64,000 nucleotides of DNA from Minisyncoccota bacterium (GTDB lineage: Bacteria > Patescibacteriota > Minisyncoccia > Phycocordibacterales > DATDWN01): the NCBI GenBank assembly GCA_036517395.1, contig DATDWN010000016.1, positions 11,262 through 75,261 on the forward strand, written 5' to 3'. The first letter of the stretch is position 1; each line of letters begins with the position of its first letter. This document shows, piece after piece, positions 654-55,021 of the stretch. The notes under the pieces are model-generated. The model was not told where the DNA came from and made no database searches. It saw only the letters and a list, made by a program, of their open reading frames with translations. Position numbers and translations under genes: made by a program.

Positions 654-2486
654 TTAAAGAAGTAGAACAAAAAATCGCCAAAAGGGTGTTTTTTTGTTAT
701 ATTGGTGATGTATTGGGGGATTAGTTAAGTGGTATAACAGCGCTCTCCAAAAGCACTGTCGGGAGTTCGATTCTTCCATCCCCCGCATTGTAGCGAATGA
801 AGTCTCAAAAGCTTCTTTTTGCCTTGTAGTATAGCCACGCTTTTTAGGTTCGAGCGAAGCAAAGAGGACTTTCTGAGACCGAAGTTCATTTTCAATGAGC
901 AAATACGGATGTATGCGTTCTATATTGAGCTTTTTATCTTTTAGAGTTAGGTTCGAGCCGATGGTAGAAAATATATTACGCTTCTTTTGAATGTCATCTG
1001 TAACAAAGTGTTTTAACGCAAATCTACAGAAATTAAATGTACGCTCTGTTGTCTCTATGGATTGGTCAAATTTTGTTTTTACTTCATTAAGTTCAGTTTC
1101 AATCGCTCCTCTCTCTTTTAACAACCCTCTTTTCTGTTCAAGATATTCGTCTGGTGTATATAACTCATGATTGATATTTTGAGGTGAAGTATATTCTCGA
1201 TGAAGATTTGCGATACGAGTTTGCACATTATCATAAGTGGCTTGCAGTGAGTCACGAATTCTTTTCTCTCCACTTGTAGAGTCATTTTGTTTTTCAGAAA
1301 GATAATCAAGAGCAACTCTTAGATATTCTTCGTCAATCGTTAGACCAGAAAGAACTTCGTTGAATTGTGTATCGAGGTCTTCAAGTTTTATGGACCTCTG
1401 AGTACAGGTTTTACATGGTCTCTTCGTGCAGTGAAAATAAGTGTAGTGAAGAATGGTGGGATTAATCATCTCTGATATATCTGTTTTACATTTTGCACAA
1501 GCAGTTCTGCCTTCATACGCAAATTTGTATTTACATTTTGTACAAATAATCTGATGTTTTTCTTCTGCTGTGATAGTTCCATTACATTCTCCGCACTTAA
1601 TAAGTCCTGTCGCATAGAAATTTCTAGTTTTTGGTTGAGGCTTACCTTGCCTTCCAAGAAGGACCTGTGCTCGCCAGAATTCTTTTTCCGTAATCATTGG
1701 CTGATGATTACCTTTGTATAATTCTTTTTCTCCGGTCTCATCATTCTTCCATTCAAAAGACCCATAGTAAAAAGGTTCTTTGAACATTTCATAAATCTGT
1801 GTACGACTTAATGGCTTACCACCAAGGCGTTTTCTTATTGTTGTTCTTAGCCCCCATTTGGTATTTGCTGTATCAAGGATTTTGGTCACTGAATATGTGC
1901 CTGTGAGAAACAGGTCCCACATTTTTCGGACAATTTCAAAATTTTTCTCATCGGGTACAATAATTTTTTCTCCTTTGTCGCCTTGATTTTTATAACCTAT
2001 TGGAGCAAGGCTTGGTCGCCAACCCTTTGCGACTCTTGAATTCAAGCCTCGCTTAACATTCTTAGAAAGTCTGACCACATAGTCGGTAGCACGACCACCT
2101 TCAATACTCATAAGAAGACCAGCATCTTCTGGATAGAATGAGCGACTTGGAGTTTTAATTACTTTTATGACAGATTTTTGGAGCATCCATTGTAACCGCC
2201 CATTATCAATCGGATTTCGAGATAAGCGGTCAATATCCCAACACAAAAGACCGTCTGCCTCGCCATTTTGAATACGATCTAGCATTTCATTAAAGACTTT
2301 TCGCCCAGGATCCTTTGCACTCTTTTCTTCAGTGAAAGGTGCTTTTGCTAGAAACAATTCTTCACGGTCTGCAATCTGTTTAAGAGCGTCTGTTTGGTCG
2401 CCAATAGATGCAACTTGCCGTTGAGAGTCTTCAGAACTTTTACGACAGTATACGAAGTATTTTATTTTAGTATTATCTTGGGTCAT
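654..2486 (-). CDS. large serine recombinase (resolvase catalytic domain + recombinase domain + zinc ribbon)
   Basis: N-terminus 'YFVYCRKSSEDSQRQVASIGDQ' is the serine-recombinase catalytic motif; downstream 'CGECNGTI...CTKCKYKF' is a Cys4 zinc ribbon; 610 aa. The ORF reads through tRNA-Trp on the opposite strand. Confidence 0.8.
   Translation of the reverse strand: MTQDNTKIKYFVYCRKSSEDSQRQVASIGDQTDALKQIADREELFLAKAPFTEEKSAKDPGRKVFNEMLDRIQNGEADGLLCWDIDRLSRNPIDNGRLQWMLQKSVIKVIKTPSRSFYPEDAGLLMSIEGGRATDYVVRLSKNVKRGLNSRVAKGWRPSLAPIGYKNQGDKGEKIIVPDEKNFEIVRKMWDLFLTGTYSVTKILDTANTKWGLRTTIRKRLGGKPLSRTQIYEMFKEPFYYGSFEWKNDETGEKELYKGNHQPMITEKEFWRAQVLLGRQGKPQPKTRNFYATGLIKCGECNGTITAEEKHQIICTKCKYKFAYEGRTACAKCKTDISEMINPTILHYTYFHCTKRPCKTCTQRSIKLEDLDTQFNEVLSGLTIDEEYLRVALDYLSEKQNDSTSGEKRIRDSLQATYDNVQTRIANLHREYTSPQNINHELYTPDEYLEQKRGLLKERGAIETELNEVKTKFDQSIETTERTFNFCRFALKHFVTDDIQKKRNIFSTIGSNLTLKDKKLNIERIHPYLLIENELRSQKVLFASLEPKKRGYTTRQKEAFETSFATMRGMEESNSRQCFWRALLYHLTNPPIHHQYNKKTPFWRFFVLLL
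715..785 (+). tRNA. tRNA-Trp (anticodon CCA)
   Basis: Hand-folded cloverleaf: acceptor GGGGGAT/ATCCCCC, D-stem GTTA/TAAC, anticodon loop CTCCAAA (CCA at 747-749), T-arm GGGAG-TTCGATT-CTTCC. One C-A mismatch in the anticodon stem; 3' CCA is not encoded. Confidence 0.75.
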
Positions 2487-2880
2487 AAAATATTTTACCT
2501 ATGTTCAGATTATTATTGTCGTCTTCGTACCCATGAATAATTACTTGTAGACCCGCTGTTTCACCTTTCAGGACTAGTCTCTTTATTTCCATGAGTTGAT
2601 TGAATTTATCCTTCCACATTTCTCCATATTGTTCACGCAAGACCCTTTTAACATTTTTTATATCGTCACTATCAACTACTGGTTTCCGACATTCAAAACA
2701 TTCAATTAATCCGCTTTCATTAATTTTGTAATAATGTGTATGTTTCTGACCCTCACAATTTTTTGAAACATACACATCCACATCTTCAACTGATTTTATT
2801 ATAGCTTTTTTCATATAATTTGTATTTAGTTTACTTGGTAATTTATCAATATAAGCAATATATGCTTGCCGAGTTACCAC
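2473..2880 (-). CDS. hypothetical protein (island)
   Basis: 135-aa ORF overlapping the recombinase start by 14 nt; no recognisable motif. Confidence 0.4.
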   Translation of the reverse strand: MVTRQAYIAYIDKLPSKLNTNYMKKAIIKSVEDVDVYVSKNCEGQKHTHYYKINESGLIECFECRKPVVDSDDIKNVKRVLREQYGEMWKDKFNQLMEIKRLVLKGETAGLQVIIHGYEDDNNNLNIGKIFYDPR

Positions 2881-2941
2881 CCTTTAGCCAAGAAGAAAGA
2901 AAGCCAATTCGGCAAAACGGCAACATATTTATTAACTACTA

Positions 2942-4051
2942 CTAAAATAATCCTTTTTCGTCTTCAACTAAGGGTTTTTCTTCTTCTCTTGGTAGAAAGT
3001 ACAGATTTTGCCTGCCTTGCTTAACACAATCAATCATTCCCTCGTTCACCAACTCTATAAGAGCCATCTGAACATTTTTTGTCCCTGCTGTCTTTTTTAA
3101 CATCTCAACCATCTCTCGTTTGGTTTTACTCCCATCAGGAAGAATGTCCAAAATCTTCTCTTTTGCTTCTTCTTTCTTATTCTCTTGGTCCTCAATCTCT
3201 CCACCATAAGTGAGTTCTGTTTTCACTATTTCGTCTTTAACATGGTCCCGTATAATCGTCTTAAAGGGGTTTATTTCCCTTGTGAGACGGTTTTTTCGCT
3301 GGTATACATCTATCTCTTCTCCTCCTGGTTCGCTCTTCAACATAAGCAGTATTTCCACAGAAGCAGTTTTATCTGTGCTTCCGAAGAGAAATTCTTTTTT
3401 TGGAACCTTGCCCTCAAAGTTGGATGGTTTTCTGAAATGGTCTAAGAAAACTACTGCAACACCCTTATCCTTTAAGATTTTAAGCCTATTAAAGAAGGTT
3501 CTAATTTCATCTGCTTTTTCTTCTTTTATTCCACCTGCAACTGCTCTGAATGTGTCTAGAAATACAACTTTAATATCATAGTAATCAATAACATTTAATA
3601 ACCAGTCAACCCCTCTATCTTCATTGAGGTCTAACTCTGTATCACTATAGACTAAAATCTTTTTGTTAGTTTCACTAAATCCTAATTGTTTTCCTCTTCG
3701 TTGTGCTTCACTTTGCGACATCTCCATGTCGACATAGAGAACATTTCCTGCTTCAGTTTTGAAATCTTTGTTACCAAGAAAATCAATTCCTAATGCGATA
3801 CAACGAGCCATCTCCATCGCAAACCAAGTTTTCTTTTCTCCTGTAACAGAAGCTAGTATGACAAAACCTTCATATGGAATGAGATTTTGGACCAACCATC
3901 TTTGTTTGGAAAATTCTTTATTATCTAGAGTTGTCCAATGCATAGGTTCAAAGAAATGTTTCTCAACTTTTCTTTCTGCTCTTTTATATCCTGCATCCAA
4001 ACCTCTTTCCATAGAAAAATCTTTGAATGTTTGGTTTCTATTTTCCTCCAT
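2942..4051 (-). CDS. RecA-like AAA_25 / RepA-type replication ATPase with C-terminal wHTH
   Basis: Walker-A-like 'SVTGEKKTW', 'YVDMEMSQSEAQRRGKQLGF' and 'VFLDTFR' motifs resemble plasmid/phage RepA-primase-associated ATPases; the C-terminus is wHTH-like. Confidence 0.55.
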   Translation of the reverse strand: MEENRNQTFKDFSMERGLDAGYKRAERKVEKHFFEPMHWTTLDNKEFSKQRWLVQNLIPYEGFVILASVTGEKKTWFAMEMARCIALGIDFLGNKDFKTEAGNVLYVDMEMSQSEAQRRGKQLGFSETNKKILVYSDTELDLNEDRGVDWLLNVIDYYDIKVVFLDTFRAVAGGIKEEKADEIRTFFNRLKILKDKGVAVVFLDHFRKPSNFEGKVPKKEFLFGSTDKTASVEILLMLKSEPGGEEIDVYQRKNRLTREINPFKTIIRDHVKDEIVKTELTYGGEIEDQENKKEEAKEKILDILPDGSKTKREMVEMLKKTAGTKNVQMALIELVNEGMIDCVKQGRQNLYFLPREEEKPLVEDEKGLF

Positions 4052-4345: not shown

Positions 4346-4791
4346 ATTAATATCAAGTGACAAGAAGACAGTAGCTTTTTAGCTAAACTGAATTTGTCCC
4401 TAGTGAGGTGCCGGTAGCTAGTGCGATGGCGACTGGTATAGTCTTGGAGCCTGTGCTGATGCTGGTGGCTATGAGGGGTGTTTTCTAAACTGAAAATGAA
4501 TTAACCAAAGTATATATCTGTCAAAAAATAAGTCAATCCTATTATCCACCACCTTGAATAAAAGTAATTACTCTGACATGATTAAATTACAACTTAATAA
4601 AAAGTTGACCTAACCCCCATAGTTTTCTGTGGGATATGGTCAAAAACCGGTAAGAGACAAAGAACCCATCATATAGGGCTACTCTTACCGGTCCCTGCGG
4701 GAAACTGCAGGTGGAGGACCTCGGTCCTCACCTATGTGGTGGGCTTTTTGTGTCCAAAATACGAATTATTTTTATTATTAAATAAATTATT

Positions 4792-17899: not shown

Positions 17900-20159
17900 G
17901 CCTTTTTTTCTCTTCCTGCAAAATTTCTAGTGCGCGGGGAAGTTCTATTGTGTACACATCATCTTCTTTCAGAGAGCGAAAATCTTTTTGATGTACTATG
18001 TATGGCCCGAAACGTCCAATGTTTGCCGTTATCTTTTCACCGGTATCAGGATGAACCCCCAAGACTTTCGGAAGCGACAAATATTTTAGTGCATCAGCCA
18101 ATGTCACCGTGCTCAAATCTTTCTCTCTCGGTATTGATGCCATTTTTGGCTTAATTGCTTTTTTCGAACCCTTGCCCTTCACCCTCTCTCCAACCTGAAC
18201 ATATGGCCCGTACTTTCCAATATTTACAAAAATCGGCAAACCAGATTCCGGATCAACTCCTACGGGTTCATCCTTTTTAATCTCCTCTCCCGCCATAGTC
18301 AAAGCACCTTCACAGTCAGGATAGTTAGAACAGGAAAGAAACTTGCCGTTTCGAGAAAGTTTTATAATCATATCTTTGCCACATTTTGGACATCGGAATT
18401 CGAGACCGGCGTCACCCAGGTTTGTGATCTTATCAATTTTTTCCTTGGCTTTTACATCGGCCAAAAATGGCTTATAAAAAGTAGCCAATGTTTTTACATA
18501 TTCTTCCTTACCCTCGGCTATGAGGTCGAGTTTATCTTCCATGTCAGCCGTGAAGCTGTCGCTTATGTACTCGGCAAAATTTGCTTCCAAAAAACTAGAT
18601 ACAACATCGCCCGTGTCAGTGGGTACCAGTGCCTTGCTCACTTTCTCCACGTAACCTCTATCCTCCAAAGTTTTTATGGTTGAAGCGTATGTACTAGGCC
18701 TTCCTATGCCTCTTTTCTCAAGTTCCTTAATCAATCCTGCTTCAGAGTATCTTCCTGGTGGTTCGGTCTGCTTTTCTTCTGTATTAATTTTTTTCAAATT
18801 AAGAGCCTCACCGATTTTGACTTTTGGCAATTCAACATCATCTCCTCGCGAAGCCGGATCTCCGAGGAGCCATCCAGCAAATTTAATTTGCGAACCAGTT
18901 ATAGAAAAATCCGGAATATGTGTGTCAAGGACAGTCCTTGACATTGACACATTTGCTGATATTTTGGTTCGAAGTGTCAGAGCATCTTTCATTTGCGATG
19001 ACACAGTTCGTCGCCATATGAGCTTATAAAGTTTTTTCTGTTCATCATTAAAACCGACATGCTCGGCTTCAAAATGTGTTGGGCGTATAGCCTCGTGCGC
19101 CTCCTGTGCGTTTTTGGATTTAGTTGCAAATTTTCGTATTTGTAAATATTCTTTACCAAACTTTTTCTCCACCACTGCCGCAATCTGTGCTATAGCAACA
19201 CCACTCAAGTTTGTCGAGTCCGTGCGCATGTATGTAATATGTCCACACTCATATAATTTCTGTGCAATACCCATTGTTCTTGATGGAGAAAATCCTAGCC
19301 GTGATGATGCTGTCTGTTGAAGTGTGGAGGTTATGAAAGGCGCACGAGGGGATTTTTTCACATCCGTCTCTTTTACATCTTTCACAAACCAGCTGTTTTC
19401 CTTTCCTCCCTTTTCTGCAATTTCCACAATCCGCTCCATTTCTTTTTTATCTGTTGGTTCTTCTTCGCAGACAACAGTAAAAATCTGTTTTCCCCTAGGC
19501 AACGCCTCGGGAGATTTATCTGAGGTATCCGAGGCGTTGCCTAGGGAAGAGATCTCTGCTGAAATAATCCAGAAAGCATGAGACTTAAAAGCCCGGATTT
19601 CTCTCTCGCACTCCATGATAATGCGCAGAGCGGGGGATTGGACGCGTCCGGCAGAGAGGCCATATCGTACTTTTTTCCATATCAAACCCGACAAGTCGTA
19701 TCCCACGAGCCTATCGAGGACTCGCCTTGCTTCCTGCGCTTGTCGCAAATTCTGATCGATATCCCGTGGATTTTTCAAAGCTTCCTCTATCGCTTCCTTA
19801 GTAATTTCCTGATATGAAACCCTCTTCACTTTTTTGTTATGTACTATATGTTCTGTGCCCTTATCATTAATAAGTTCTGCCAAGTGCCATGCTATCGCCT
19901 CACCCTCGCGGTCGGGGTCAGTTGCAAGCAGAACTTCACTGGACTTTTTGGCCAAAGCTTTTATACCATTGACCACTTTCTCCTTGCCTTTGGAAATTTC
20001 ATAGTGCGGCACGAAACCACCCTCGATGTCGATGGCCACTTTGTTCGACTTTGGCAAATCACGAACATGGCCGACAGAAGCAACCACTTCATATCCACTT
20101 CCAAGATATTTTGAAATAGTCTTGGCTTTGGCGGGGGACTCAACGATAAGTAACTTCAT
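17874..20159 (-). CDS. topA: DNA topoisomerase I
   Basis: Toprim 'LLIVESPAKAKTISKYLG', active-site region, C-terminal Zn ribbons 'CPKCGKDM', 'CSNYPDC'. Confidence 0.9.
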   Translation of the reverse strand: MKLLIVESPAKAKTISKYLGSGYEVVASVGHVRDLPKSNKVAIDIEGGFVPHYEISKGKEKVVNGIKALAKKSSEVLLATDPDREGEAIAWHLAELINDKGTEHIVHNKKVKRVSYQEITKEAIEEALKNPRDIDQNLRQAQEARRVLDRLVGYDLSGLIWKKVRYGLSAGRVQSPALRIIMECEREIRAFKSHAFWIISAEISSLGNASDTSDKSPEALPRGKQIFTVVCEEEPTDKKEMERIVEIAEKGGKENSWFVKDVKETDVKKSPRAPFITSTLQQTASSRLGFSPSRTMGIAQKLYECGHITYMRTDSTNLSGVAIAQIAAVVEKKFGKEYLQIRKFATKSKNAQEAHEAIRPTHFEAEHVGFNDEQKKLYKLIWRRTVSSQMKDALTLRTKISANVSMSRTVLDTHIPDFSITGSQIKFAGWLLGDPASRGDDVELPKVKIGEALNLKKINTEEKQTEPPGRYSEAGLIKELEKRGIGRPSTYASTIKTLEDRGYVEKVSKALVPTDTGDVVSSFLEANFAEYISDSFTADMEDKLDLIAEGKEEYVKTLATFYKPFLADVKAKEKIDKITNLGDAGLEFRCPKCGKDMIIKLSRNGKFLSCSNYPDCEGALTMAGEEIKKDEPVGVDPESGLPIFVNIGKYGPYVQVGERVKGKGSKKAIKPKMASIPREKDLSTVTLADALKYLSLPKVLGVHPDTGEKITANIGRFGPYIVHQKDFRSLKEDDVYTIELPRALEILQEEKKRRGFKKKSK

Positions 20160-20198: not shown

Positions 20199-20350
20199 TT
20201 TATCTGCGACGAGAGAGGAGCGCGTGAATGTGTAATCACATTCACAGCGTCCGAACGAGGAGTAGCAATGGTAAAAACCCCGCCCCTCTGGGGCGGAACA
20301 GGGGTCCAGGGCTTGCCCTGGGGTTTCATACCATTGATTAAAAACAATTG
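20199..20350. repeat. 140-bp structured repeat (family C), copy 1, between topA and dprA
   Basis: Near-identical to 42403-42540; hairpins GTGAATGTG-TAAT-CACATTCAC, GCCCC-TCTG-GGGGC, CCAGGGC-TT-GCCCTGG; carries the SD and mini-ORF. Confidence 0.8.
20267..20350 (+). CDS. 27-aa mini-ORF (MVKTPPLWGGTGVQGLPWGFIPLIKNN) inside the 140-bp repeat, perfect SD
   Basis: GAGGAG 5 nt upstream of the ATG. A second copy at 42471 differs by a synonymous CCC/CCA change. Confidence 0.4.
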
Positions 20351-23900: not shown

Positions 23901-24962
23901 ATGAACTTCTGGCATCAACTCAAACGCCCTATCATGGTTCTCGCGCCCATGGCTGACGTAACGGATGCGGCTTTTCGTCGCATCATTGCAAAATATGGTA
24001 AGCCGGACGTCATGTGGACAGAATTTGTTTCGGCTGACGGTCTGTTTATGGGAGGATATGAACATCTAATAAAAGATCTGGCTTTCACAGAAGCCGAGAG
24101 ACCTATCGTGGCCCAATTTTTCACAAGTAAACCGGAGATGATGGAGAAAGCGGCGGAGCTGGCGTGTGATCTAGGTTTTGATGGGATAGATATAAACATG
24201 GGATGTCCCGACAAATCAGTGGAAAAGCAGGGAAGTGGTTCAGCTCATATAAAAGATTATAAAAATGCTCAAAAAATTATTCGCGCGGCCATGAGAGGTG
24301 CGGAGAAAGCATTCCAAAGGTCCGACCTTAAAAACCCAAACTCCCAAGGTCGGACCTTGGGTCCCATACCCGTTAGTGTCAAAACGCGTATTGGTTACAA
24401 TAAAAATGAACTTGATACATGGCTACCGGCACTTCTTGAGACCAATCCCGCGGTGATAACAATCCATGCACGAACCAGAAAAGAAATGTCCTCTGTTCCT
24501 GCTCGTTGGGAGCATGTGAAGGAAGCTGTGGAGATAAGAAATAAATTTTTTGATTCTAGTGGCAAGAAAAGTCAGACGCTGATTTTTGGCAATGGAGATG
24601 TCGTAGGCACTGATGACGCTAGGAGAAAGTGTGAAGAAACCGGATGTGACGGTGTCATGCTCGGTCGCGCGATTTTCGGAAACCCGTGGCTTTTTAACAA
24701 ACCACTCCAGATGTCAAGGACAGTCCTTGACACGAAAGATAAGGAGGTCTCGATTCCAGAAAGGTTGAGAATAATGGTTGAGCACACGAAACTTTTTGAA
24801 GAAATATTGCCATACAAAAGTTTTGCAATAATGAAAAAACACTACAAAGCCTACGTGACGGGTTGGCCTGATGCAAAAGAACTAAGATTGAAACTGATGG
24901 AAGCCAAAGATGCTGGGGAAGTGGAGGCTGTTGTGGGAGAGTATCTAGCTAGTCTGACTTGA
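23901..24962 (+). CDS. dus: tRNA-dihydrouridine synthase
   Basis: 'MVLAPMADVTDAAFRRI', 'GFDGIDINMGCP', TIM-barrel Dus motifs; contains two palindromic in-frame segments. Confidence 0.85.
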   Translation: MNFWHQLKRPIMVLAPMADVTDAAFRRIIAKYGKPDVMWTEFVSADGLFMGGYEHLIKDLAFTEAERPIVAQFFTSKPEMMEKAAELACDLGFDGIDINMGCPDKSVEKQGSGSAHIKDYKNAQKIIRAAMRGAEKAFQRSDLKNPNSQGRTLGPIPVSVKTRIGYNKNELDTWLPALLETNPAVITIHARTRKEMSSVPARWEHVKEAVEIRNKFFDSSGKKSQTLIFGNGDVVGTDDARRKCEETGCDGVMLGRAIFGNPWLFNKPLQMSRTVLDTKDKEVSIPERLRIMVEHTKLFEEILPYKSFAIMKKHYKAYVTGWPDAKELRLKLMEAKDAGEVEAVVGEYLASLT

Positions 24963-30312: not shown

Positions 30313-31440
30313 ATGAATGAGACCCGTACATATTATCGAAACAAAGTTGTTTCCAATTTGTACAGAAATCTTCTCAAACCAGTTTTTTTTCACAATGACC
30401 CGGAGTTTGTTCATGATTGCATGACAGGATTTGGTGCTTTTTTGGGTCGCTATACTTTGGGGCAGAGAATGACAAAAAGTTTTTTTGATTATGAAAATTC
30501 GGCTTTAATACAGGATGTGCTAGGTATTAGTTTCAGAAATCCCATTGGTCTCTCGGCGGGTTTTGATAAAAATGCAGAGCTTGTAGATATTTTGCCGTCT
30601 GTTGGGTTTGGTTTTGCTGAAATCGGCTCTATCACCGGAAACCCGTGTTTAGGAAATGCTAAACCTCGACTGTGGCGTTTGCCAAAATCCAAAAGTCTCC
30701 TCGTTTATTATGGTTTAAAAAATGACGGCTGTGTGGCTATCGCAGAAAAACTGCATGATAAGTTTTTTACCATCCCGATGGGCATGAGTATTGCCATGAC
30801 GAATTGCGAGGAGAATTTGGTTCTAGAAAATGCCATAAAAGATTACGCAAAAGCTTTTGCCACTATGGAGCCTTTTGGTAACTACATAACTATAAATATT
30901 AGTTGTCCGAATGCTCTCGGTGGTCAGCCCTTTATTGCTCCAGACAAACTTGAACACTTATTGGACACTTTAGACAAGATTCCTAGTCAAAAACCAATTT
31001 TTATTAAACTCTCCCCTGATCTCAGTAATGCAGAGTTAGACGCTCTTCTTGATGTTGCTCGTCGTCACAGGGTTCACGGTATTATTTGCACAAACTTGAG
31101 CAAAAAAAGAGACAATCCAAAAATCATCGACGCTGGTATACCTTCAAAGGGTGGTTTCAGTGGCAAAGTAGTTCAACAGCTTTCTGATGACATGCTCTCT
31201 TATATTTACAAAAAAGAGGGACAGAGATTTATTCTTGTTGGCTGTGGCGGAGTTTTCACGGCGGAAGATGCTTACAAAAAAATCCGGCTTGGAGCATCTC
31301 TTGTCCAGTTGATTACCGGAATGATTTTTGAAGGCCCACAGGTCATAAGCCAGATTAATCAAGGCCTTGCGGAACTGTTAAAACGAGATGGTTTTGCCAA
31401 TATTAAAGAGGCTGTTGGTGTGGATTCATCCACACACTAA
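30313..31440 (+). CDS. pyrD: dihydroorotate dehydrogenase (quinone, class 2)
   Basis: 'GLSAGFDKNAE', 'GFAEIGSIT', 'ITINISCPN', 'GCGGVFTAEDAYKKIRLGASLVQL'. The last 4 codons and stop lie in the MITE repeat. Confidence 0.9.
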   Translation: MNETRTYYRNKVVSNLYRNLLKPVFFHNDPEFVHDCMTGFGAFLGRYTLGQRMTKSFFDYENSALIQDVLGISFRNPIGLSAGFDKNAELVDILPSVGFGFAEIGSITGNPCLGNAKPRLWRLPKSKSLLVYYGLKNDGCVAIAEKLHDKFFTIPMGMSIAMTNCEENLVLENAIKDYAKAFATMEPFGNYITINISCPNALGGQPFIAPDKLEHLLDTLDKIPSQKPIFIKLSPDLSNAELDALLDVARRHRVHGIICTNLSKKRDNPKIIDAGIPSKGGFSGKVVQQLSDDMLSYIYKKEGQRFILVGCGGVFTAEDAYKKIRLGASLVQLITGMIFEGPQVISQINQGLAELLKRDGFANIKEAVGVDSSTH

Positions 31441-31500
31441 CTTTGGTATTGTGTATTTTCAAAACGTGGTGAAGTAATGTAAAAGTTAGTGTGTGGATAA
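31428..31500. repeat. family A element, copy 2 (short, ~73 bp)
   Basis: ATCCACACACTAA...TTAGTGTGTGGATAA; the left TIR provides the pyrD stop codon. Confidence 0.75.
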
Positions 31501-41341: not shown

Positions 41342-41430
41342 GAATTTTCAATTATCAATTTACAATTTTCAATCAATTCTCAATGTTCCAATGATTCAAT
41401 TTGAAAATTGAGAACTGAAAATTGAAAATT
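41342..41430. repeat. ~88-bp AT-rich repeat (family D) abutting the msrA ATG
   Basis: Near-identical to 38717-38804. Confidence 0.75.
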
Positions 41431-41433
41431 ATC

Positions 41434-41982
41434 ATGCATACTAAAATAGAAACAGCAATCTTGGGTGGAGGTTGCTTCTGGTGTACGGAGGCAGTTTTTC
41501 AGATGTTGAAGAGCGTGAAATCTGTCGAGCCGGGTTATGCAGGTGGAAATGTATCAAACCCAATATATGAACAAGTTTGCGGGGGAAACACTGGTCATGT
41601 TGAGTGCATAAAAATAGAGTTTAACCCAGAAGAAATTTCATATCGAGATTTATTGACCGTCTTTTTTGGAAGCCATGATCCAACAACACTAAATATGCAG
41701 GGAAATGATATTGGCACTCAATACCGCTCTGTTATTTTTTATACAACGCCAAAGCAGAAAGAAACAGCCGAAAGTTTTATACAAGAATTAAATGACTCCA
41801 GCCCAGACGGTCGACCTATTGTCACAGCGGTTGAACCGCTGGAGAGTTTTTACGTTGCTGAAAACTATCACAAGGATTATTATGAGAGAAATAAAGAAGC
41901 CCCCTATTGCCAGGTCATTATCAATCCAAAATTAGAAAAAGTACAAAAACAATTTGCAAGTCTTTTAAAAACTAATAAATAG
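41434..41982 (+). CDS. msrA: peptide methionine sulfoxide reductase A
   Basis: 'GGGCFWCTEAVF' active site; ATG at 41434. Confidence 0.9.
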   Translation: MHTKIETAILGGGCFWCTEAVFQMLKSVKSVEPGYAGGNVSNPIYEQVCGGNTGHVECIKIEFNPEEISYRDLLTVFFGSHDPTTLNMQGNDIGTQYRSVIFYTTPKQKETAESFIQELNDSSPDGRPIVTAVEPLESFYVAENYHKDYYERNKEAPYCQVIINPKLEKVQKQFASLLKTNK

Positions 41983-42030
41983 AATAAAATCATTCCGACA
42001 TTCTCAAGAATGTCGGAATGATTTACTAAA

Positions 42031-42438
42031 ATGGATATGGATATAGACGAGGAAGAATTAAAAAATAAACTTACGCCAGAGGAGTATGCGGTTTTGAGAG
42101 AAAAGGGAACAGAAACTCCATTTAGCGGAAAGCTTTTACACGATGATAGAAATGGAATGTATAAATGCAAAGTCTGCGGCGCTTCACTTTTTTCATCCGA
42201 TGCCAAGTTTGATTCTGGTACCGGTTGGCCAAGTTTTGATCAGGCCATTCCCGGAAGTGTCAAAGAAGTGAAGGATGACACCCTCGGAATGAGTCGTATA
42301 GAAGTGGTTTGCGCAAAATGTAACTCTCATCTCGGTCACTTATTTGATGACGGTCCAACTAAAACTGGAAAAAGATATTGCTTGAACTCCGTCTGCCTTG
42401 ATTTATCTGCGACGAGAGAGGAGCGCGTGAATGTGTAA
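42031..42438 (+). CDS. msrB: peptide methionine sulfoxide reductase B
   Basis: 'CKVCGASLF', 'CAKCNSHLGHLFDDGP', 'RYCLNS'. The last ~10 codons extend into the 140-bp repeat. Confidence 0.9.
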   Translation: MDMDIDEEELKNKLTPEEYAVLREKGTETPFSGKLLHDDRNGMYKCKVCGASLFSSDAKFDSGTGWPSFDQAIPGSVKEVKDDTLGMSRIEVVCAKCNSHLGHLFDDGPTKTGKRYCLNSVCLDLSATREERVNV

Positions 42439-42590
42439 TCACATTCACAGCGTCCGAACGAGGAGTAACAATGGTAAAAACCCCGCCCCTCTGGGGCGGA
42501 ACAGGGGTCCAGGGCTTGCCATGGGGTTTCATACCATTGATCCGCACACTAATTCTGCCATGGTCCTGTTTTGAAATAATCCTAAAATAA
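42403..42590. repeat. 140-bp structured repeat (family C), copy 2, after msrB; mini-ORF 42471-42590
   Basis: Two substitutions versus copy 1; the one inside the mini-ORF is synonymous (CCC to CCA). Confidence 0.8.
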
Positions 42591-48373: not shown

Positions 48374-48450
48374 AACCCGCACACTAAAATTGGCATCGTC
48401 GGGATTACCGACAGTACAAAACATAATGCCAATATTAGTGTGCGGGTAAA
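48374..48450. repeat. family A element, copy 5 (short) in the xseA-xseB junction
   Basis: AACCCGCACACTAAAATTGGCAT...ATGCCAATATTAGTGTGCGGGTAAAC. Confidence 0.75.
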
Positions 48451-51622: not shown

Positions 51623-52909
51623 GTGAAATCTTTTTCTTTTGATATACATTCTGAACTTCCAAATTCTCTCGGACGAGTTGGTACAATACACACTCCACAT
51701 GGTGACATACAAACACCGGCATTTGTCGCAGTTGGAACAAAAGGCACGGTAAAAAGTTTGACGCCGGAACAGGTCGCAGATACTGGCACACAAGTCATAA
51801 TCGCAAATACATATCATTTATATTTAGAGCCCGGAGACGAAAAGATAAAAAATATTGGAGGGTTGCACAAAGCGATGAACTGGTCTGATCCTCTTATGAC
51901 CGACTCTGGCGGCTTCCAAGTTTTTTCTCTAGGTGTCGCATATGGCAAAAAGATTAGCAAAGTTTCAAAAAAAGATGAACTAATACTATCCAAGCCTCTC
52001 CCTATGTCCGACATAGGGAGATTTGCGGAAACAAGACTTCAACAAGATGAGGCAGTACCAAAGATTGCTCGAATTGATTCCAATGGGGTAATGTTCCGCG
52101 ATCATATATCGGGCAGCGCTCACTATTTTACTCCGGAAAAATCGATAGAGATTCAGCACAATCTCGGCGCAGATATTATTTTTGCCTTTGACGAATGCAC
52201 CTCACCTCATGAGTCGCTTCATTATCAGAAAGAAGCGCTTGAGAGAACTCACCGCTGGGCTCGACGTTCTCTTGAACATCATTCCGACATTCTCAAGAAT
52301 GTCGGAATGAATGGCCCTGCGATTTTTGGCATTGTGCAGGGCGGGCGAGATGAAACCTTGCGTAAAGAAAGTGCAAAATATATGGCAGATTTAAGGGCCG
52401 GAGGTCCTGAACGAAGCGAAGGATTCGACGGTTTCGGAATAGGCGGATCATTTGAAAAAGAAGATATGAGCAAGGCAGTAGAATGGTGCAATCAGATTTT
52501 GCCAAGAGAGAAGCCAAGGCATCTGCTTGGTATCGGCGAGCCAACCGATTTATTTATGGCGGTTGAGTTCGGGTGTGATTTGTTTGACTGTGTTTCACCC
52601 ACTCGTATCGCTCGAAACGGCGGAGTTTATACAAAAGAAGGAAGAGTCAATTTACTGAATCAAGAATTTCGAGAAGATTCAAAACCTCTCGACCAAGGTT
52701 GTCTCTGCTACACATGCAAAAACTTTTCGTGCGCTTATGTTGCACATCTCTTTCATGCAAAAGAAATTTTGGCTTATACGCTGGCATCAATACACAACCT
52801 TTATTTTATAACTCACATGGTGGATGGTATGCGCGAGACTATGCAAAGCGGGGATTTTGAAAGCTACAAAAAAGATTTTTTAAGTAAATACTACAGGACT
52901 AATTTGTGA
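51623..52909 (+). CDS. tgt: queuine tRNA-ribosyltransferase
   Basis: 'LMTDSGGFQVFSL', 'DCVSPTRIARNGG', Zn site 'CLCYTCKNF...H'; carries a 30-bp palindromic segment at 52290-52319. Confidence 0.9.
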   Translation: MKSFSFDIHSELPNSLGRVGTIHTPHGDIQTPAFVAVGTKGTVKSLTPEQVADTGTQVIIANTYHLYLEPGDEKIKNIGGLHKAMNWSDPLMTDSGGFQVFSLGVAYGKKISKVSKKDELILSKPLPMSDIGRFAETRLQQDEAVPKIARIDSNGVMFRDHISGSAHYFTPEKSIEIQHNLGADIIFAFDECTSPHESLHYQKEALERTHRWARRSLEHHSDILKNVGMNGPAIFGIVQGGRDETLRKESAKYMADLRAGGPERSEGFDGFGIGGSFEKEDMSKAVEWCNQILPREKPRHLLGIGEPTDLFMAVEFGCDLFDCVSPTRIARNGGVYTKEGRVNLLNQEFREDSKPLDQGCLCYTCKNFSCAYVAHLFHAKEILAYTLASIHNLYFITHMVDGMRETMQSGDFESYKKDFLSKYYRTNL

Positions 52910-52921
52910 TATATTAGGCGA

Positions 52922-55021
52922 ATGCAGTTTAAAATACACAGGGAGTTCGAGCCCGCGGGGGATCAGCCCAAAGCTATTGAAGCATTAGTTGATGGAGTAA
53001 AAAAAGGTCTGAAACATCAGACACTTTTTGGTGTGACTGGATCCGGTAAAACTTTCACGGTAGCAAACGTCATACAAGAAATCCAAAAACCAACTCTGGT
53101 CATCGCCCACAACAAAACTCTAGCCGCTCAGCTGGCTCAGGAATATCGCGAATTTTTCCCGAACAACGCCGTGCATTATTTTGTTTCTTATTACGACTAC
53201 TACCAACCCGAGGCCTACATGCCCGTCTCTGACACATATATAGAGAAGGAAGCAATGATAAATGAGGAGATTGAGAGACTTCGTCACGCTTCGACGCAGG
53301 CTCTTCTCACACGAAAGGATGTTATCATCGTCGCCTCAGTTTCTTGCATCTATGGCCTCGGTTCTCCCGTCGAATATGAAAAAGTAAATATGAAAATAGC
53401 CGTGGGACAGGAAATTTCTCGGGCGGAATTTATCAGAAGTTTAGTTGATGTCCATTTTGAGAGGACTAGCGCAGATCTTTCGTCGGGACAATTTCGAGCC
53501 ATAGGGAACATGTTAGAAATTATGCCGATTTCAGAAAAAAATATTTACCGTATTGAAATCGAGGCCGGCAACCACAGTACCAGAGCAAAGCTCGGTACGG
53601 GGCATAGAATAAAACAAATATTGGAAATTGACTCGATTACTCGAAGTATAGTAAGAGAAGTCAGCGCATTTTTTCTTTTTCCCGCCAAACATTTCATTTC
53701 CACGAAAGAGCAAAACGAAAGAGCCTTCAAATCTATCAAAGCGGAACTGACCGAGCGACTAAAAGAATTAGAAAAAGAAGGCAAGTTGCTCGAAGCGGAA
53801 AGGCTGAAGAGACGCACGACTTATGACTTGGCTCTTATCCGCGAGATGGGATATTGCAACGGCATAGAAAACTACTCTCGGCATTTTTCTGGGAAGATGG
53901 CGGGAGAAGCGCCTGACACTTTGCTTTCATATTTTCCCCACAAGGCCGACGGTTCGGCAGATTTTTTGACGATTATCGATGAGTCTCACGTTACGGTTCC
54001 GCAAATAGGTGCTATGTATGGAGGGGATTCATCTCGAAAACAGTCGCTTGTTGATTTCGGATTTCGATTACCAAGCGCAAAAGACAACAGGCCTTTGAAA
54101 TTTAAAGAGTTTGAAGAGAGGATGGGACAGTGTATATATACGAGCGCCACCCCGAATGATTATGAAAGAGAACACTCACAGCAGACCGTGGAGCAGGTTA
54201 TACGACCGACGGGTCTTATTGATCCAGTTGTTGAGGTTCGACCAATAGTATCCTCCCCGAGGTCTGACCTTGGGAAATTAGATGTTAAAGGTCAGACCTC
54301 TGGAATTCCGTATCCGGGTCAAATAAAAGATTTCATACAAGAATCCGAGAAAGCCATAAAAAAAGGTGGGAGGGTTATAGCCACAACTCTAACTAAAAAG
54401 ATGGCAGAAGATTTAAGCGAATATTTGAAAGAGGGGAATATTAAAGCGGAATATTTGCACAGTGATATAAAAACAATACAGCGCATTGAGATACTGACAG
54501 CTTTTCGTCGCGGTGAATTTGATATTTTAGTCGGAGTGAATTTGCTTCGAGAAGGTTTGGATTTGCCGGAGGTGACGCTTATTGGTATTTTGGAAGCGGA
54601 TAAAGAAGGATTTCTACGAAGCGAAACTTCTCTTATACAAATTATAGGTCGTGCGGCGCGAAATGTAGATGGAAAAGTCATTTTGTACGCCGATCACATG
54701 ACCGGTTCGATGGAGTATGCCATAAACGAGACAAACCGCAGACGCGCTCTGCAAGTGGACTACAACACAAAACACGGTATCACTCCGAAAACTATAATAA
54801 AAAAGATTCAGGACATAACCGACCAGATGAAGACAGAACATGCGAAAACTGTGAGCGATTTACTCGAAATTGATAAAAAACTATTTGAAAAAGATCCACA
54901 GAAATTGATAAAGCAAAAAGAAAAACAAATGGAGGGAGCTGTGAAAATCTTGGACTTTGAGACGGCCGCTATCTTGCGTGACGAGGTTTTGGAATTACAG
55001 AGGTTACTTGGAAAAAAATGA
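52922..55021 (+). CDS. uvrB: excinuclease ABC subunit B
   Basis: 'GDQPKAI', 'GVTGSGKTFT', helicase motifs, C-terminal UvrB/C interaction 'AAILRDEVLELQ'. Confidence 0.95.
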   Translation: MQFKIHREFEPAGDQPKAIEALVDGVKKGLKHQTLFGVTGSGKTFTVANVIQEIQKPTLVIAHNKTLAAQLAQEYREFFPNNAVHYFVSYYDYYQPEAYMPVSDTYIEKEAMINEEIERLRHASTQALLTRKDVIIVASVSCIYGLGSPVEYEKVNMKIAVGQEISRAEFIRSLVDVHFERTSADLSSGQFRAIGNMLEIMPISEKNIYRIEIEAGNHSTRAKLGTGHRIKQILEIDSITRSIVREVSAFFLFPAKHFISTKEQNERAFKSIKAELTERLKELEKEGKLLEAERLKRRTTYDLALIREMGYCNGIENYSRHFSGKMAGEAPDTLLSYFPHKADGSADFLTIIDESHVTVPQIGAMYGGDSSRKQSLVDFGFRLPSAKDNRPLKFKEFEERMGQCIYTSATPNDYEREHSQQTVEQVIRPTGLIDPVVEVRPIVSSPRSDLGKLDVKGQTSGIPYPGQIKDFIQESEKAIKKGGRVIATTLTKKMAEDLSEYLKEGNIKAEYLHSDIKTIQRIEILTAFRRGEFDILVGVNLLREGLDLPEVTLIGILEADKEGFLRSETSLIQIIGRAARNVDGKVILYADHMTGSMEYAINETNRRRALQVDYNTKHGITPKTIIKKIQDITDQMKTEHAKTVSDLLEIDKKLFEKDPQKLIKQKEKQMEGAVKILDFETAAILRDEVLELQRLLGKK

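What the first reader, a model, noticed from the sequence alone, without database searches (positions are those of the whole stretch)
52290..52319. 30-bp palindrome CATTCCGACATTCT-CA-AGAATGTCGGAATG inside tgt coding sequence, duplicated as an intergenic hairpin after msrA
The identical palindrome forms the msrA/msrB intergenic hairpin (41986-42024, terminator-like) and also sits in-frame in tgt, encoding HHSDILKNVGMNG. This is a third, distinct palindromic family occurring in both coding and non-coding contexts.
Basis: seen in the sequence. Interest (0 to 1): 0.6.

Follow-up and report, generated by a model that had tools for sequence, protein, structure and literature searches.

The report
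Conserved CPR operator palindrome inside tgt
The 30-bp palindrome seen inside tgt and after msrA is one of several hundred near-identical copies found across the ultra-small Patescibacteria (CPR). It is most likely the DNA binding site of a small, uncharacterised ArsR-type regulator, and it is unusual because it is also written in frame into housekeeping genes.

Summary
The palindrome is real. There are two identical copies, but the tgt copy lies at 52280-52309, not 52290-52319. It is not a local oddity. Exact copies occur in 44 genome stretches (43 are CPR MAGs) and 104 metagenome stretches, and none occur in viral, phage or plasmid collections.

Each arm is CATTC-nnn-CATTC-T, so the site has four pentamers in 12-2-12 (14-2-14) geometry.

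About a third of the copies flank one gene, a ~95-aa ArsR/SmtB-fold winged-helix protein specific to CPR. The upstream copy supplies the -35 box and the 17-nt spacer of that gene's promoter. A second copy overlaps its stop codon.

Other copies sit just after gene 3' ends, or in frame (HSDILxNVGM) in Tgt, TsaD, TsaC, MnmA, MiaA, PrmC, YchF, UvrC and others, often at the same position in orthologs. In Tgt orthologs the site stays a perfect palindrome while the peptide changes, so the constraint acts on the nucleic acid, not the protein.

Best reading (about 0.58): it is the operator-type binding site of this regulator, and the two window copies are orphan sites. The regulator gene was not found in the 84 kb of this genome that I could see. 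What the window copies actually do is inferred, not shown.

The parts
41991..42020 (.). Copy A of the palindrome (CATTC-CGA-CATTC-T-CA-A-GAATG-TCG-GAATG). Complementarity extends to 41987-42024. It lies in the 48-nt msrA-msrB spacer, 9 nt after the msrA stop and 11 nt before the msrB ATG.
   Evidence: hairpin -24.5 kcal/mol, z -7.0
52280..52309 (.). Copy B of the same palindrome (arms extend to 52279-52310). It is in frame in tgt and encodes H220-M229 (HSDILKNVGM). This segment forms the last two turns of helix 199-227 and the start of the loop before strand 233-238.
   Evidence: AF2 model; alignment to Z. mobilis Tgt
42001..42029 (+). Possible weak promoter built on copy A, with the geometry seen at CA-type regulator promoters: TTCTCA (42001-42006), 17 nt, TACTAA (42024-42029), directly before the msrB ATGs at 42031 / 42037. 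The -10 matches only 3 of 6, so this is inference only.
   Evidence: sequence, by analogy; not reported by the consensus scan
51623..52909 (+). tgt (queuine tRNA-ribosyltransferase), host gene of copy B. The loop between RSLEHH and AIFGIVQGG is hypervariable in CPR orthologs.
41422..42438 (+). msrA and msrB, the gene pair that flanks copy A. In another CPR genome (L159) the cognate regulator gene, with its sites, lies directly downstream of msrA-msrB.

Best explanation
Both window copies belong to a Patescibacteria-wide family of ~30-bp palindromic protein-binding sites. Each site has four (C/T)ATTC pentamers in 12-2-12 / 14-2-14 geometry, with a free 2-bp centre and semi-free 3-nt spacers. 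The cognate protein is most likely a ~95-aa ArsR/SmtB-fold winged-helix repressor found only in CPR bacteria.

Shown: the regulator's own gene is bracketed by two such sites. The upstream site contains the -35 hexamer and the 17-nt spacer of its promoter, so a bound dimer or tetramer would occlude RNA polymerase. This is the classic autorepression layout. The downstream site overlaps the stop codon.

Inferred: the other copies are orphan sites for the same protein. They lie just after gene 3' ends or are embedded in frame in permissive helix-end or loop segments of non-essential housekeeping genes. The window's copies are of this kind: one separates msrA from msrB, and one lies inside tgt. When occupied they would act as roadblocks or attenuators of transcription through msrA-msrB and tgt-uvrB. 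The strong RNA hairpin would be a by-product.

Shown: in tgt orthologs the DNA symmetry, not the peptide, is what is preserved.

Not shown: actual binding, the signal the protein senses, how the site was dispersed, and whether this genome encodes the regulator.
For: (1) Distribution. Exact 12-NN-12 copies occur in 44 stretches of species-representative genomes, 43 of them CPR MAGs of many classes, and in 104 metagenome stretches. There are none in IMG/VR, phage or plasmid collections.

(2) Link to the regulator. 52 of 165 exact copies lie within 150 nt of one gene family, 32 upstream of it and 21 at its 3' end. It is the only recurrent neighbour: 41 cases, against 5 or fewer for any other family.

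(3) Identity of that gene. Pfam HTH_5 scores 33 bits against a cut-off of 22. The best PDB sequence hits are HlyU, CadC, CzrA and SmtB. The AF2 model has pLDDT 93, and Foldseek's top hits are HlyU, SqrR, CzrA, CadC and SmtB. There are at least 1303 clusters, and every source-given name in the 120 listed hits is CPR or an unclassified 'bacterium'.

(4) Promoter geometry. At 43 sites upstream of the regulator, the centre reads TG in 34, CA in 6 and GC in 3, in gene orientation. TG gives TTGAGA followed 17 nt later by a TAnnnT box, often TGnTAnnnT. The CA sites use TTCTCA-17-TAGAAT (sequences).

(5) Sample not selected for palindromes. Three regulators fetched by protein alone all have a perfect site upstream and one over the stop codon. 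92 of 120 regulator C-termini are TF[QRSL]HS, which is encoded by the left arm of a site.

(6) Geometry. [quoted passage not shown]

(7) DNA-level constraint. Tgt orthologs carry four different perfect palindromes at the same codons (CGAC, TCAC, CTAC, TCGT), encoding different residues. TsaD copies are 97-100% identical in the site against 54-72% nucleotide identity in flanking codons, with 34-58% identical synonymous codons; these ranges exclude one pair of loci (L033/L132) that is identical throughout.

(8) Link to msrAB. In L159 the order is msrA-msrB-[site]-regulator-[site].
Against: No regulator homolog is encoded in the window (tblastn and HMM; best E = 0.26) or in the 9.5 + 7 kb beyond it on the same 157-kb contig. 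The ArsR-family gene found there belongs to a different subfamily and has no site next to it.

No coherent regulon emerges. Genes downstream of sites are mostly singletons. 12 intergenic copies lie between convergent genes, where there is nothing to regulate. Non-regulator sites in tandem contexts show no orientation bias, TG 9 against CA 5.

Near-perfect identity of 26-30 bp across hundreds of copies is unusual for a transcription-factor regulon. It looks more like copying from a template.

Spacer changes are often symmetric, which protein contacts at the pentamers alone would not require. This could instead reflect hairpin pairing or arm-to-arm correction.

The exact-match scans were ascertainment-biased towards perfect copies of the CGA type.

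Binding was not tested.
Confidence: 0.58

Rival explanations
1. It is a selfish, mobile or copy-pasted palindromic repeat, comparable to Rickettsia palindromic elements or REP sequences. It lands at random and survives only at permissive places such as gene ends, loops and helix ends of dispensable proteins. It has no host function, and the winged-helix gene is merely part of, or hitch-hikes with, the repeat unit (palindrome-gene-palindrome).
For: Sequence identity among copies is extreme, with few intermediates: 40 exact against 16 with 1-7 mismatches in 394 kb. Copies occur in frame in many unrelated genes, almost always in the one frame that gives a benign peptide: 21 of 34 ORF-spanning cases are frame a, and real proteins in frame b are only MurD and a PyrD-like protein. 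Host genes are mostly non-essential (tRNA modification, repair). The Tgt loop shows presence, absence and decay among orthologs. Intergenic copies lie 6-40 nt after stop codons, including between convergent genes. Flanks are often complementary with locus-specific sequence, as if the element had been inserted into existing hairpins. Both window copies share the rare TCA..TGA flank, seen in 10 of 164 copies, and the same CA centre. The regulator gene is bracketed by two direct copies.
Against: Copy number is very low for a selfish repeat: 2 in 84 kb here, and only the 2 regulator-flanking exact copies on a 557-kb contig. No transposase, RAYT or nuclease recurs next to the sites. There are no target-site duplications. 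Coding copies sit at the same position in orthologs from distant lineages (TsaD x5, YchF, PrmC, MnmA, Tgt). That points to old events followed by DNA-level conservation, not ongoing spread. The conserved -35/-10 geometry at the regulator is a functional feature. There are no copies in viral, phage or plasmid collections.
Confidence: 0.22
2. It functions mainly as RNA: a very stable hairpin acting as a transcription terminator, an mRNA 3'-end stabiliser or an RNase III / processing site. Under this reading the sequence conservation is secondary.
For: The hairpins are strong (-24 to -26 kcal/mol, z -5 to -7). Many copies are preceded by A-runs and followed by T-runs, and their stems extend into locus-specific complementary flanks. 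Most lie 6-40 nt after stop codons. Both-arm compensated variants occur in Tgt. A copy ends nearly every regulator gene.
Against: A helix function does not explain why all four pentamers are invariant while only the 3-nt spacers vary, nor why 22 of 42 variant sites have non-complementary hybrid arms. Copy A has no U-tract on the sense strand, and copy B lies in the middle of a gene. The orientation bias that places TTGAGA 17 nt from a -10 box is a DNA-level promoter feature. No Rfam family matches.
Confidence: 0.12
3. The coding copies are selected as a peptide module (HSDILxNVGM) with a function in the host proteins, and the palindromy is a side effect.
For: The same peptide appears in many enzymes, always in one frame. 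It is modelled confidently as a helix end plus loop.
Against: In Tgt orthologs the residues change (D/H/Y/R; VG/VR/TR) while the DNA stays a perfect palindrome. Most copies are non-coding. Synonymous positions are frozen in TsaD.
Confidence: 0.02
4. It is a chance similarity or an assembly / sequencing artefact.
For: None. Palindromes can be created by some library artefacts.
Against: No shuffle of 100 reached the observed count. The same sequence appears in more than 140 independent assemblies from many projects, restricted to one superphylum, in frame within conserved genes and in a fixed relation to one gene family.
Confidence: 0.01

Closest known systems
ArsR/SmtB-family repressors with 12-2-12 inverted-repeat operators (SmtB, CzrA, CadC, HlyU, SqrR/BigR)
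   Same: The associated protein has the ArsR/SmtB winged-helix fold. The site is a 12-2-12 inverted repeat with a free 2-bp centre. A site overlaps the regulator's own promoter, implying autorepression. Sites of this family are described 'upstream or within' regulated genes (PMC8790569).
   Different: No recognisable alpha3N (CxC) or alpha5 metal site, and no conserved Cys pair. It scores below the NCBIfam HTH_metalloreg cut-off (47 against 55). The operator is perfect rather than imperfect and is almost invariant across a superphylum. A second site overlaps the stop codon of the regulator gene. Orphan sites are embedded in frame in housekeeping genes. No transporter or detoxification gene is linked to it.
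Rickettsia palindromic elements (RPEs) and other in-frame MITEs
   Same: It is a palindromic DNA repeat found both between genes and in frame inside conserved proteins. It uses one preferred reading frame, sits at structurally permissive positions, and is present, absent or decayed among orthologs.
   Different: It is 30 bp, not 100-150 bp. There are a handful of copies per genome, not dozens or hundreds. It is conserved across many classes rather than one genus. It is tied to a DNA-binding protein gene and contains promoter elements. Coding copies are conserved at orthologous positions and at synonymous sites.
REP / REPIN elements with RAYT transposases
   Same: It is a short (20-40 bp) palindrome, mostly just after gene 3' ends, able to form stable hairpins.
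   Different: It has no GTAG/CGTC tag, no RAYT gene nearby, a low copy number, frequent intragenic copies, and identity across phylum-level distances.
parS centromere sites bound by ParB (and archaeal AspA sites)
   Same: It is a perfect palindrome whose sequence is conserved over very deep phylogenetic distances. There are few copies per genome, they are often inside coding sequences, and one lies at the gene of the binding protein. AspA is itself a small ArsR-like winged-helix protein (weak PDB hit, E = 0.3).
   Different: No ParA/ParB partner lies next to the regulator. Clustering near the origin could not be tested. The promoter-overlap geometry points to transcriptional control.

Membership tests
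ArsR/SmtB repressor-operator pair | The associated protein has the ArsR/SmtB winged-helix fold (a1-a5 with a beta-wing) | tested here: met
   Pfam HTH_5 33.2 bits > 22. AF2 pLDDT 93 with H8-32, H38-45, H49-61, E65-70/E73-78 and H80-90. Foldseek top hits are HlyU, SqrR, CzrA, CadC and SmtB.
ArsR/SmtB repressor-operator pair | The operator is a 12-2-12 inverted repeat | tested here: met
   TTCCGACATTCT-NN-AGAATGTCGGAA, with centre NN variable (TG 70, CA 49, GC 33 and others). The family rule is quoted from PMC8790569.
ArsR/SmtB repressor-operator pair | The operator overlaps the promoter of the regulator's own gene or operon (autoregulation) | tested here: met
   29 of 35 regulator genes in held DNA have a perfect-framework site within 150 nt upstream. 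All 3 of 3 in the sample not selected for palindromes do too. -35 (TTGAGA / TTCTCA), 17 nt, -10 geometry.
ArsR/SmtB repressor-operator pair | The protein physically binds the palindrome | not testable with these tools
   Needs EMSA, DAP-seq or ChIP.
ArsR/SmtB repressor-operator pair | An inducer site is present (alpha3N CxC, alpha5 DxHx10Hx2E, or a redox Cys pair) | tested here: inconclusive
   No CxC and no alpha5 motif. One majority Cys (xCNFKT) is below 90% conserved. The conserved His residues (H14, H21, H55, H76; H55 invariant, the other three >=90%) have unknown roles. NCBIfam HTH_metalloreg 47.3 < 55.
ArsR/SmtB repressor-operator pair | The regulator is encoded in the same genome as the window's sites | tested here: inconclusive
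   It is absent from the 64-kb window and from 16.5 kb of flanks. About 73 kb of the contig and the rest of the genome were not seen.
REP / RAYT repeats | High copy number and extragenic location | tested here: not met
   2 copies in 84 kb. 2 exact copies on a 557-kb contig. 13-20% of copies are in coding sequence.
REP / RAYT repeats | GTAG/CGTC tag and an associated RAYT (Y1 transposase) | tested here: not met
   Flanks are ACA..TGT (127 of 164). The only recurrent neighbour is the wHTH gene.
Rickettsia palindromic elements / in-frame MITEs | In-frame insertion in conserved proteins at permissive sites, with a fixed frame | tested here: met
   Frame a in Tgt, TsaD, TsaC, YchF, PrmC, UvrC, MnmA, MiaA, TspO, GT4 and others. 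In Tgt it forms a helix end plus loop.
Rickettsia palindromic elements / in-frame MITEs | 100-150 bp element with terminal inverted repeats, many copies, genus-restricted | tested here: not met
   30 bp, few copies, spread across many CPR classes.
Intrinsic (Rho-independent) terminator | A stable stem followed directly by a U-tract on the transcribed strand | tested here: not met
   Copy A is flagged only on the minus strand, and the + strand tail is ACUAAAAUGG. Copy B is mid-gene. Many other family members do have T-runs.
parS/ParB-type centromere | Bound by ParB (or a ParA-linked adaptor) and clustered near the origin | tested here: not met
   No ParA/ParB gene lies next to the regulator or the sites. 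Origin proximity is not testable.
Known RNA family (Rfam) | A match to a curated covariance model | tested here: not met
   No hit at the sites in the window or in L014, L027 or L160.

The most novel reading that the evidence does not exclude
A single small ArsR-like protein and an ultra-conserved palindrome form a Patescibacteria-wide control system. Under this reading the binding sites are deliberately kept inside the coding sequences of tRNA-modification, translation-factor and repair genes (tgt, tsaD, tsaC, mnmA, miaA, prmC, ychF, uvrC) and next to msrAB. There they would act as intragenic roadblocks or chromosome-organising sites. This would be a way for ultra-small, operon-packed genomes with few promoters and few regulators to tune individual genes. 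The site is old enough to predate the split of the major CPR classes.
Probability: 0.3. Interest if true: 0.85.

Novelty: new variant of a known kind. Interest (0 to 1): 0.7.

Why it matters
Almost nothing is known about gene regulation in the Candidate Phyla Radiation, a very large and mostly uncultivated bacterial group. This finding supplies a concrete cis-element and a candidate trans-factor that can be tested. The element is conserved across the group, easy to recognise, and found at orthologous positions inside housekeeping genes.

If the protein binds these sites, it would define what appears to be the first CPR-wide regulon, or possibly a centromere-like system. It would also be a clear bacterial example of operators maintained within coding sequence under dual coding constraint.

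If the sites instead turn out to be selfish, this would be a second, independent case, after Rickettsia, of palindromic DNA colonising protein-coding genes in reduced genomes.

In practice, the element also breaks assemblies (copies sit at contig ends in one MAG) and adds lineage-specific peptide inserts that could mislead annotation.

Tried and rejected
(1) I looked for the regulator in the window using tblastn and an HMM of 120 homologs against six-frame pieces. Nothing was found (best E = 0.26).

(2) I walked off both window ends on the same 157-kb contig. This found only a different ArsR-subfamily gene, upstream of a short ychF and with no site next to it, and no further palindromes.

(3) I tried to census proteins carrying HSDILxNVGM in the 5.8-billion-protein database. 

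(4) I tried to infer a regulon from genes downstream of sites. Only the regulator itself recurs, and the rest are mostly singletons.

(5) I tested non-regulator sites in tandem contexts for promoter orientation. There was no clear bias, TG 9 against CA 5.

(6) Rfam at gathering threshold, run on the window and on three loci, gave no family at the sites.

(7) IMG/VR, INPHARED phages and PLSDB plasmids gave no copies.

(8) Literature searches by sequence, by peptide and by topic (CPR plus palindrome / ArsR / regulon) found no description. The sequence hits were unrelated shRNA or primer strings.

(9) I considered that the two window copies were copied from each other because both have the TCA..TGA flank. 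This is only suggestive, since that flank occurs in 10 of 164 copies elsewhere.

(10) I rejected the idea that the peptide is the selected unit.

(11) I rejected DNA-uptake-sequence and dif/Xer readings. Copy density is far too low for an uptake signal and too high for a single dif site, and neither explains the fixed link to the wHTH gene.
Full report
**1. Observation**

The 30-mer CATTCCGACATTCT-CA-AGAATGTCGGAATG occurs twice in the window.

- Copy A is at 41991-42020. Its complementarity extends to 18-nt arms, 41987-42024. It sits in the short spacer between msrA (41422-41982, Pfam PMSR) and msrB (42031-42438, Pfam SelR).
- Copy B is at 52280-52309, with arms 52279-52310. Copy B lies inside tgt (51623-52909, Pfam TGT) and is read as ..RSLEHHSDILKNVGMNGPAIFG...

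Four half-site matches were found against 0.62 expected, and none of 100 shuffles reached four. As RNA, each copy would form a hairpin of about -25 kcal/mol. On the msrA sense strand no U-tract follows copy A, and the terminator scan flags it only on the opposite strand.

**2. The element is conserved across a superphylum**

A scan of one genome per species for TTCCGACATTCT-N(0-8)-AGAATGTCGGAA returned 44 stretches. 43 of them come from Patescibacteria/CPR MAGs labelled Saccharibacteria, Paceibacteria, Liptonbacteria, Doudnabacteria, Giovannonibacteria, Tagabacteria and others. A metagenome scan added 104 stretches. IMG/VR, phage and plasmid collections returned nothing.

The window's own Tgt is closest to Zambryskibacteria / Paceibacterota / Minisyncoccia proteins, so the window is a CPR genome.

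Across 165 exact copies the conserved block is (A/T)CA-TTCCGACATTCT-NN-AGAATGTCGGAA-TG(T/A). The centre is TG, CA (the same element flipped), GC or others. Each arm is CATTC-nnn-CATTC-T, giving four pentamers with period 8.

Allowing any spacer finds further variants: TCA, CAA, TAA, CTA and TCG. 20 of these are symmetric and 22 have hybrid arms. The pentamers are therefore the invariant part.

**3. The key association**

In L014, L027 and L028, two copies 320-370 bp apart bracket a homologous ~95-aa gene. The same gene lies next to a site in 42 of 147 loci. 52 of the 165 exact copies are within 150 nt of it. It is the only recurrent neighbour of the sites.

The gene encodes an ArsR/SmtB-type winged-helix protein:

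- Pfam HTH_5 scores above its cut-off.
- The best PDB sequence matches are HlyU, CadC, CzrA and SmtB.
- The AF2 model has pLDDT 93 with the a1-a5 plus wing topology. Foldseek's top hits are HlyU, SqrR, CzrA, CadC and SmtB.

The family has at least 1303 clusters at 90% identity. Every source-given name in the 120 listed hits is CPR or an unclassified 'bacterium', and none carries a functional name.

**4. Operator geometry**

Upstream of the regulator gene, the palindrome is oriented so that its centre reads TG in 34 of 43 cases (CA 6, GC 3). This gives TTGAGA followed exactly 17 nt later by a TAnnnT box, often with an extended TGn. The CA-oriented cases use TTCTCA-17-TAGAAT. The site therefore contains the -35 hexamer and the spacer of the regulator's own promoter, which is the standard layout of an autorepressor.

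A second site ends the gene, and the last codons (..T-F-x-H-S-stop) are its left arm. Among 120 homologs retrieved by protein similarity alone, 92 end in TF[Q/R/S/L]HS.

To remove ascertainment bias I fetched three regulators by protein identity only. All three have a perfect-framework site upstream and another over the stop codon.

12-2-12 inverted repeats, located upstream of or within regulated genes, are the described operator type of this protein family (PMC8790569).

**5. Coding copies**

Among exact copies spanned by long ORFs, 21 are read in the frame HSDIL[K/E/Q]NVG[M/I]. The hosts are:

- Tgt (window, L030)
- TsaD (five loci)
- TsaC/Sua5
- YchF (two lineages)
- PrmC (two lineages)
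- UvrC, MnmA, MiaA, TspO, a GT4 glycosyltransferase and others

Only MurD and a PyrD-like protein use a second frame. The third frame appears only in spurious antisense ORFs. Copies in TsaD, YchF, PrmC, MnmA and Tgt lie at the same position in orthologs from different lineages.

In the AF2 model of the window's Tgt, the ten codons form the last two turns of helix 199-227 and the start of the loop before strand 233-238. Relative to Z. mobilis Tgt, the segment is only two residues longer.

**6. What is conserved is the DNA, not the peptide**

In 120 CPR Tgt orthologs, the segment between RSLEHH and ALFGIVQGG is hypervariable. Most have KSKPNAETQ. A clade related to the window has the palindrome or derivatives of it. 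Others carry unrelated inserts.

DNA of syntenic orthologs (FKBP-tgt-uvrB) shows the following at the same codons:

- Four different perfect palindromes, each changed on both arms: ..TTCCGAC.., ..TTCTCAC.., ..TTCCTAC.. and ..TTCTCGT... They encode D/H/Y/R and VG/VR/VG/TR.
- One version decaying, with 3 mismatches.
- One decayed version (HSLIVANGGI) that still aligns codon by codon.

In TsaD, the ten palindrome codons are 97-100% identical between genomes. Their flanking codons are 54-72% identical, and only 34-58% of same-amino-acid codons are identical. These flank ranges exclude one pair of loci (L033/L132) that is identical throughout.

**7. Other contexts**

De-duplicated exact copies fall as follows: near the regulator 43, inside called genes 36 (lenient gene calling), at contig edges 21, tandem intergenic 26, convergent 12, divergent 6. 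They typically lie 6-40 nt after a stop codon. Many have A-runs before and T-runs after, and locus-specific complementary extensions of the stem. Non-regulator tandem sites show no clear orientation bias, and no coherent regulon emerges.

One informative locus, L159, has the order MnmA | msrA-msrB-[site]-regulator-[site]-TruB. It also has a degenerate site in MnmA at the same position as the exact MnmA copy in L127. This links the regulator to the gene pair that carries copy A in the window.

**8. The window's genome**

The regulator is not encoded in the window. It is also absent from the 9.5 kb and 7 kb beyond the window on the same 157,629-nt contig. The ArsR-family gene found there belongs to a different subfamily and has no site beside it. 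Whether the cognate protein is present therefore remains open.

**9. Interpretation**

The best-supported reading is that the palindrome is the binding site of this CPR-specific ArsR-type protein.

- Shown: the association, the protein fold, the 12-2-12 geometry, the promoter overlap, and the DNA-level constraint.
- Inferred: actual binding, and roadblock or attenuator action at the orphan sites in msrA-msrB and tgt.

The main rival is a selfish, RPE/REP-like palindrome that survives at permissive sites. It explains the near-perfect identity of copies, the in-frame copies in dispensable genes, and the 3'-end and convergent locations. It does not explain the very low copy number, the lack of any transposase, the orthologous positions of coding copies with frozen synonymous sites, or the promoter geometry.

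The two readings are not exclusive: a protein-bound site could have been dispersed by copying.

A purely RNA-level role is less likely. The invariant parts are the four pentamers, and half of the variant sites have non-pairing hybrid spacers.

**10. Novelty**

No paper in the searched library contains the sequence or the peptide in this context, or describes a CPR ArsR-type regulon. No Rfam family covers it.

It is best filed as a new variant of a known kind, an ArsR/SmtB repressor-operator pair. It is unusual in three ways: superphylum-wide sequence invariance, a second site fused to the regulator's stop codon, and operators kept in frame inside housekeeping genes.

Noticed in passing
window 42402-42541 and 20199-20338: A 140-nt direct repeat, 98.6% identical, containing three hairpins (GTGAATGTGTAATCACATTCAC; a CCCCGCCCC..GGGGCGG stem; CCAGGGCTTGCCCTGG). 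The first copy supplies the last ~12 codons and the stop codon of msrB (..LSATREERVNV*). It could be a small mobile element or an sRNA/terminator module.
   Followed up: partly
window 24314-24361 and 54256-54303: A second palindrome family (CC.AGGTCYGACCTT - 16 nt - AAGGTCRGACC..GG). Both copies are inside coding sequences: a Dus (dihydrouridine synthase) gene, 23901-24962, and uvrB, 52922-55021, where it is read as SSPRSDLGKLDVKGQTSGIP. This is another coding palindrome in a tRNA-modification gene and a repair gene.
   Followed up: partly
window 31428-31498, 48375-48447, 19493-19546: Further inverted repeats: the CACACTAA..TTAGTGTG family (two copies with 29-37 nt loops) and a perfect 18-nt-arm palindrome CCCTAGGCAACGCCTCGG.
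   Followed up: no
Tgt orthologs P0023, P0038, P0039, P0080, P0098 (L154 3001-4284): The same hypervariable Tgt loop carries a different recurrent insert in other CPR lineages (..[NR]FL[RQ]VLGKNPQT[TM]QK[SD]F..). This suggests a second element that targets or survives in this loop.
   Followed up: partly
L155 19783-20914 (same contig as the window, ~7 kb past its 3' end): A different ArsR-subfamily gene (ANPKRLEIL..SQHLALL, 102 aa) lies 5 nt upstream of an unusually short YchF (272 aa). In other CPR genomes YchF carries the palindrome in frame in its middle region.
   Followed up: partly
coding copies in L005, L012, L016, L020, L030, L039, L127, L142 and the window: Host genes of in-frame copies are strongly skewed towards tRNA-modification and translation-associated genes (Tgt, TsaD, TsaC, MnmA, MiaA, PrmC, YchF; possibly TruB in L159). 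This could reflect a regulon, or simply tolerance of inserts in dispensable genes.
   Followed up: partly
L012 and L131/L139 (PrmC): In PrmC the palindrome-encoded HSDILQNVGM replaces the native x-S-D-x9-FD segment before the NPPY motif with no change in length. It is a substitution, not a net insertion.
   Followed up: no
L003 ~3200-3260 (3' end of the regulator gene): A chimeric palindrome, ACATTCCGAC-CCCGCCATGGCGGG-GTCGGAATGT. The outer arms belong to the family, but the inner part is replaced by a GC-rich stem, as if one hairpin were nested in another.
   Followed up: no
L001, L021, L034, L040 (MAG CAZTRS01): Copies lie at contig ends and share longer flanks, so in that genome the palindrome is part of a longer multi-copy repeat that breaks the assembly.
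   Followed up: no
L160 2453-3930: Four TCAC-type perfect sites lie within 1.5 kb around the regulator, a tRNA gene and an HTH_17/Fic pair. L038 similarly has five sites and two regulator paralogs within ~2.8 kb.
   Followed up: no
window 654-4051 (minus strand): A large serine recombinase (Resolvase + Recombinase domains, 610 aa) lies next to an AAA_25 protein and near a tRNA at 715-785. This may be the edge of an integrated element.
   Followed up: no
window 4607-4729: A LOOT RNA (RF03000) match, 71.8 bits.
   Followed up: no
L037 3610-3638 and L002 7358-7388: Two outliers have the same arms but 5-nt and 7-nt centres. One is in a MAG labelled Bacillota. The other has 14-nt locus-specific stem extensions and nearby direct repeats of GGTCAAGCCTG.
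   Followed up: no
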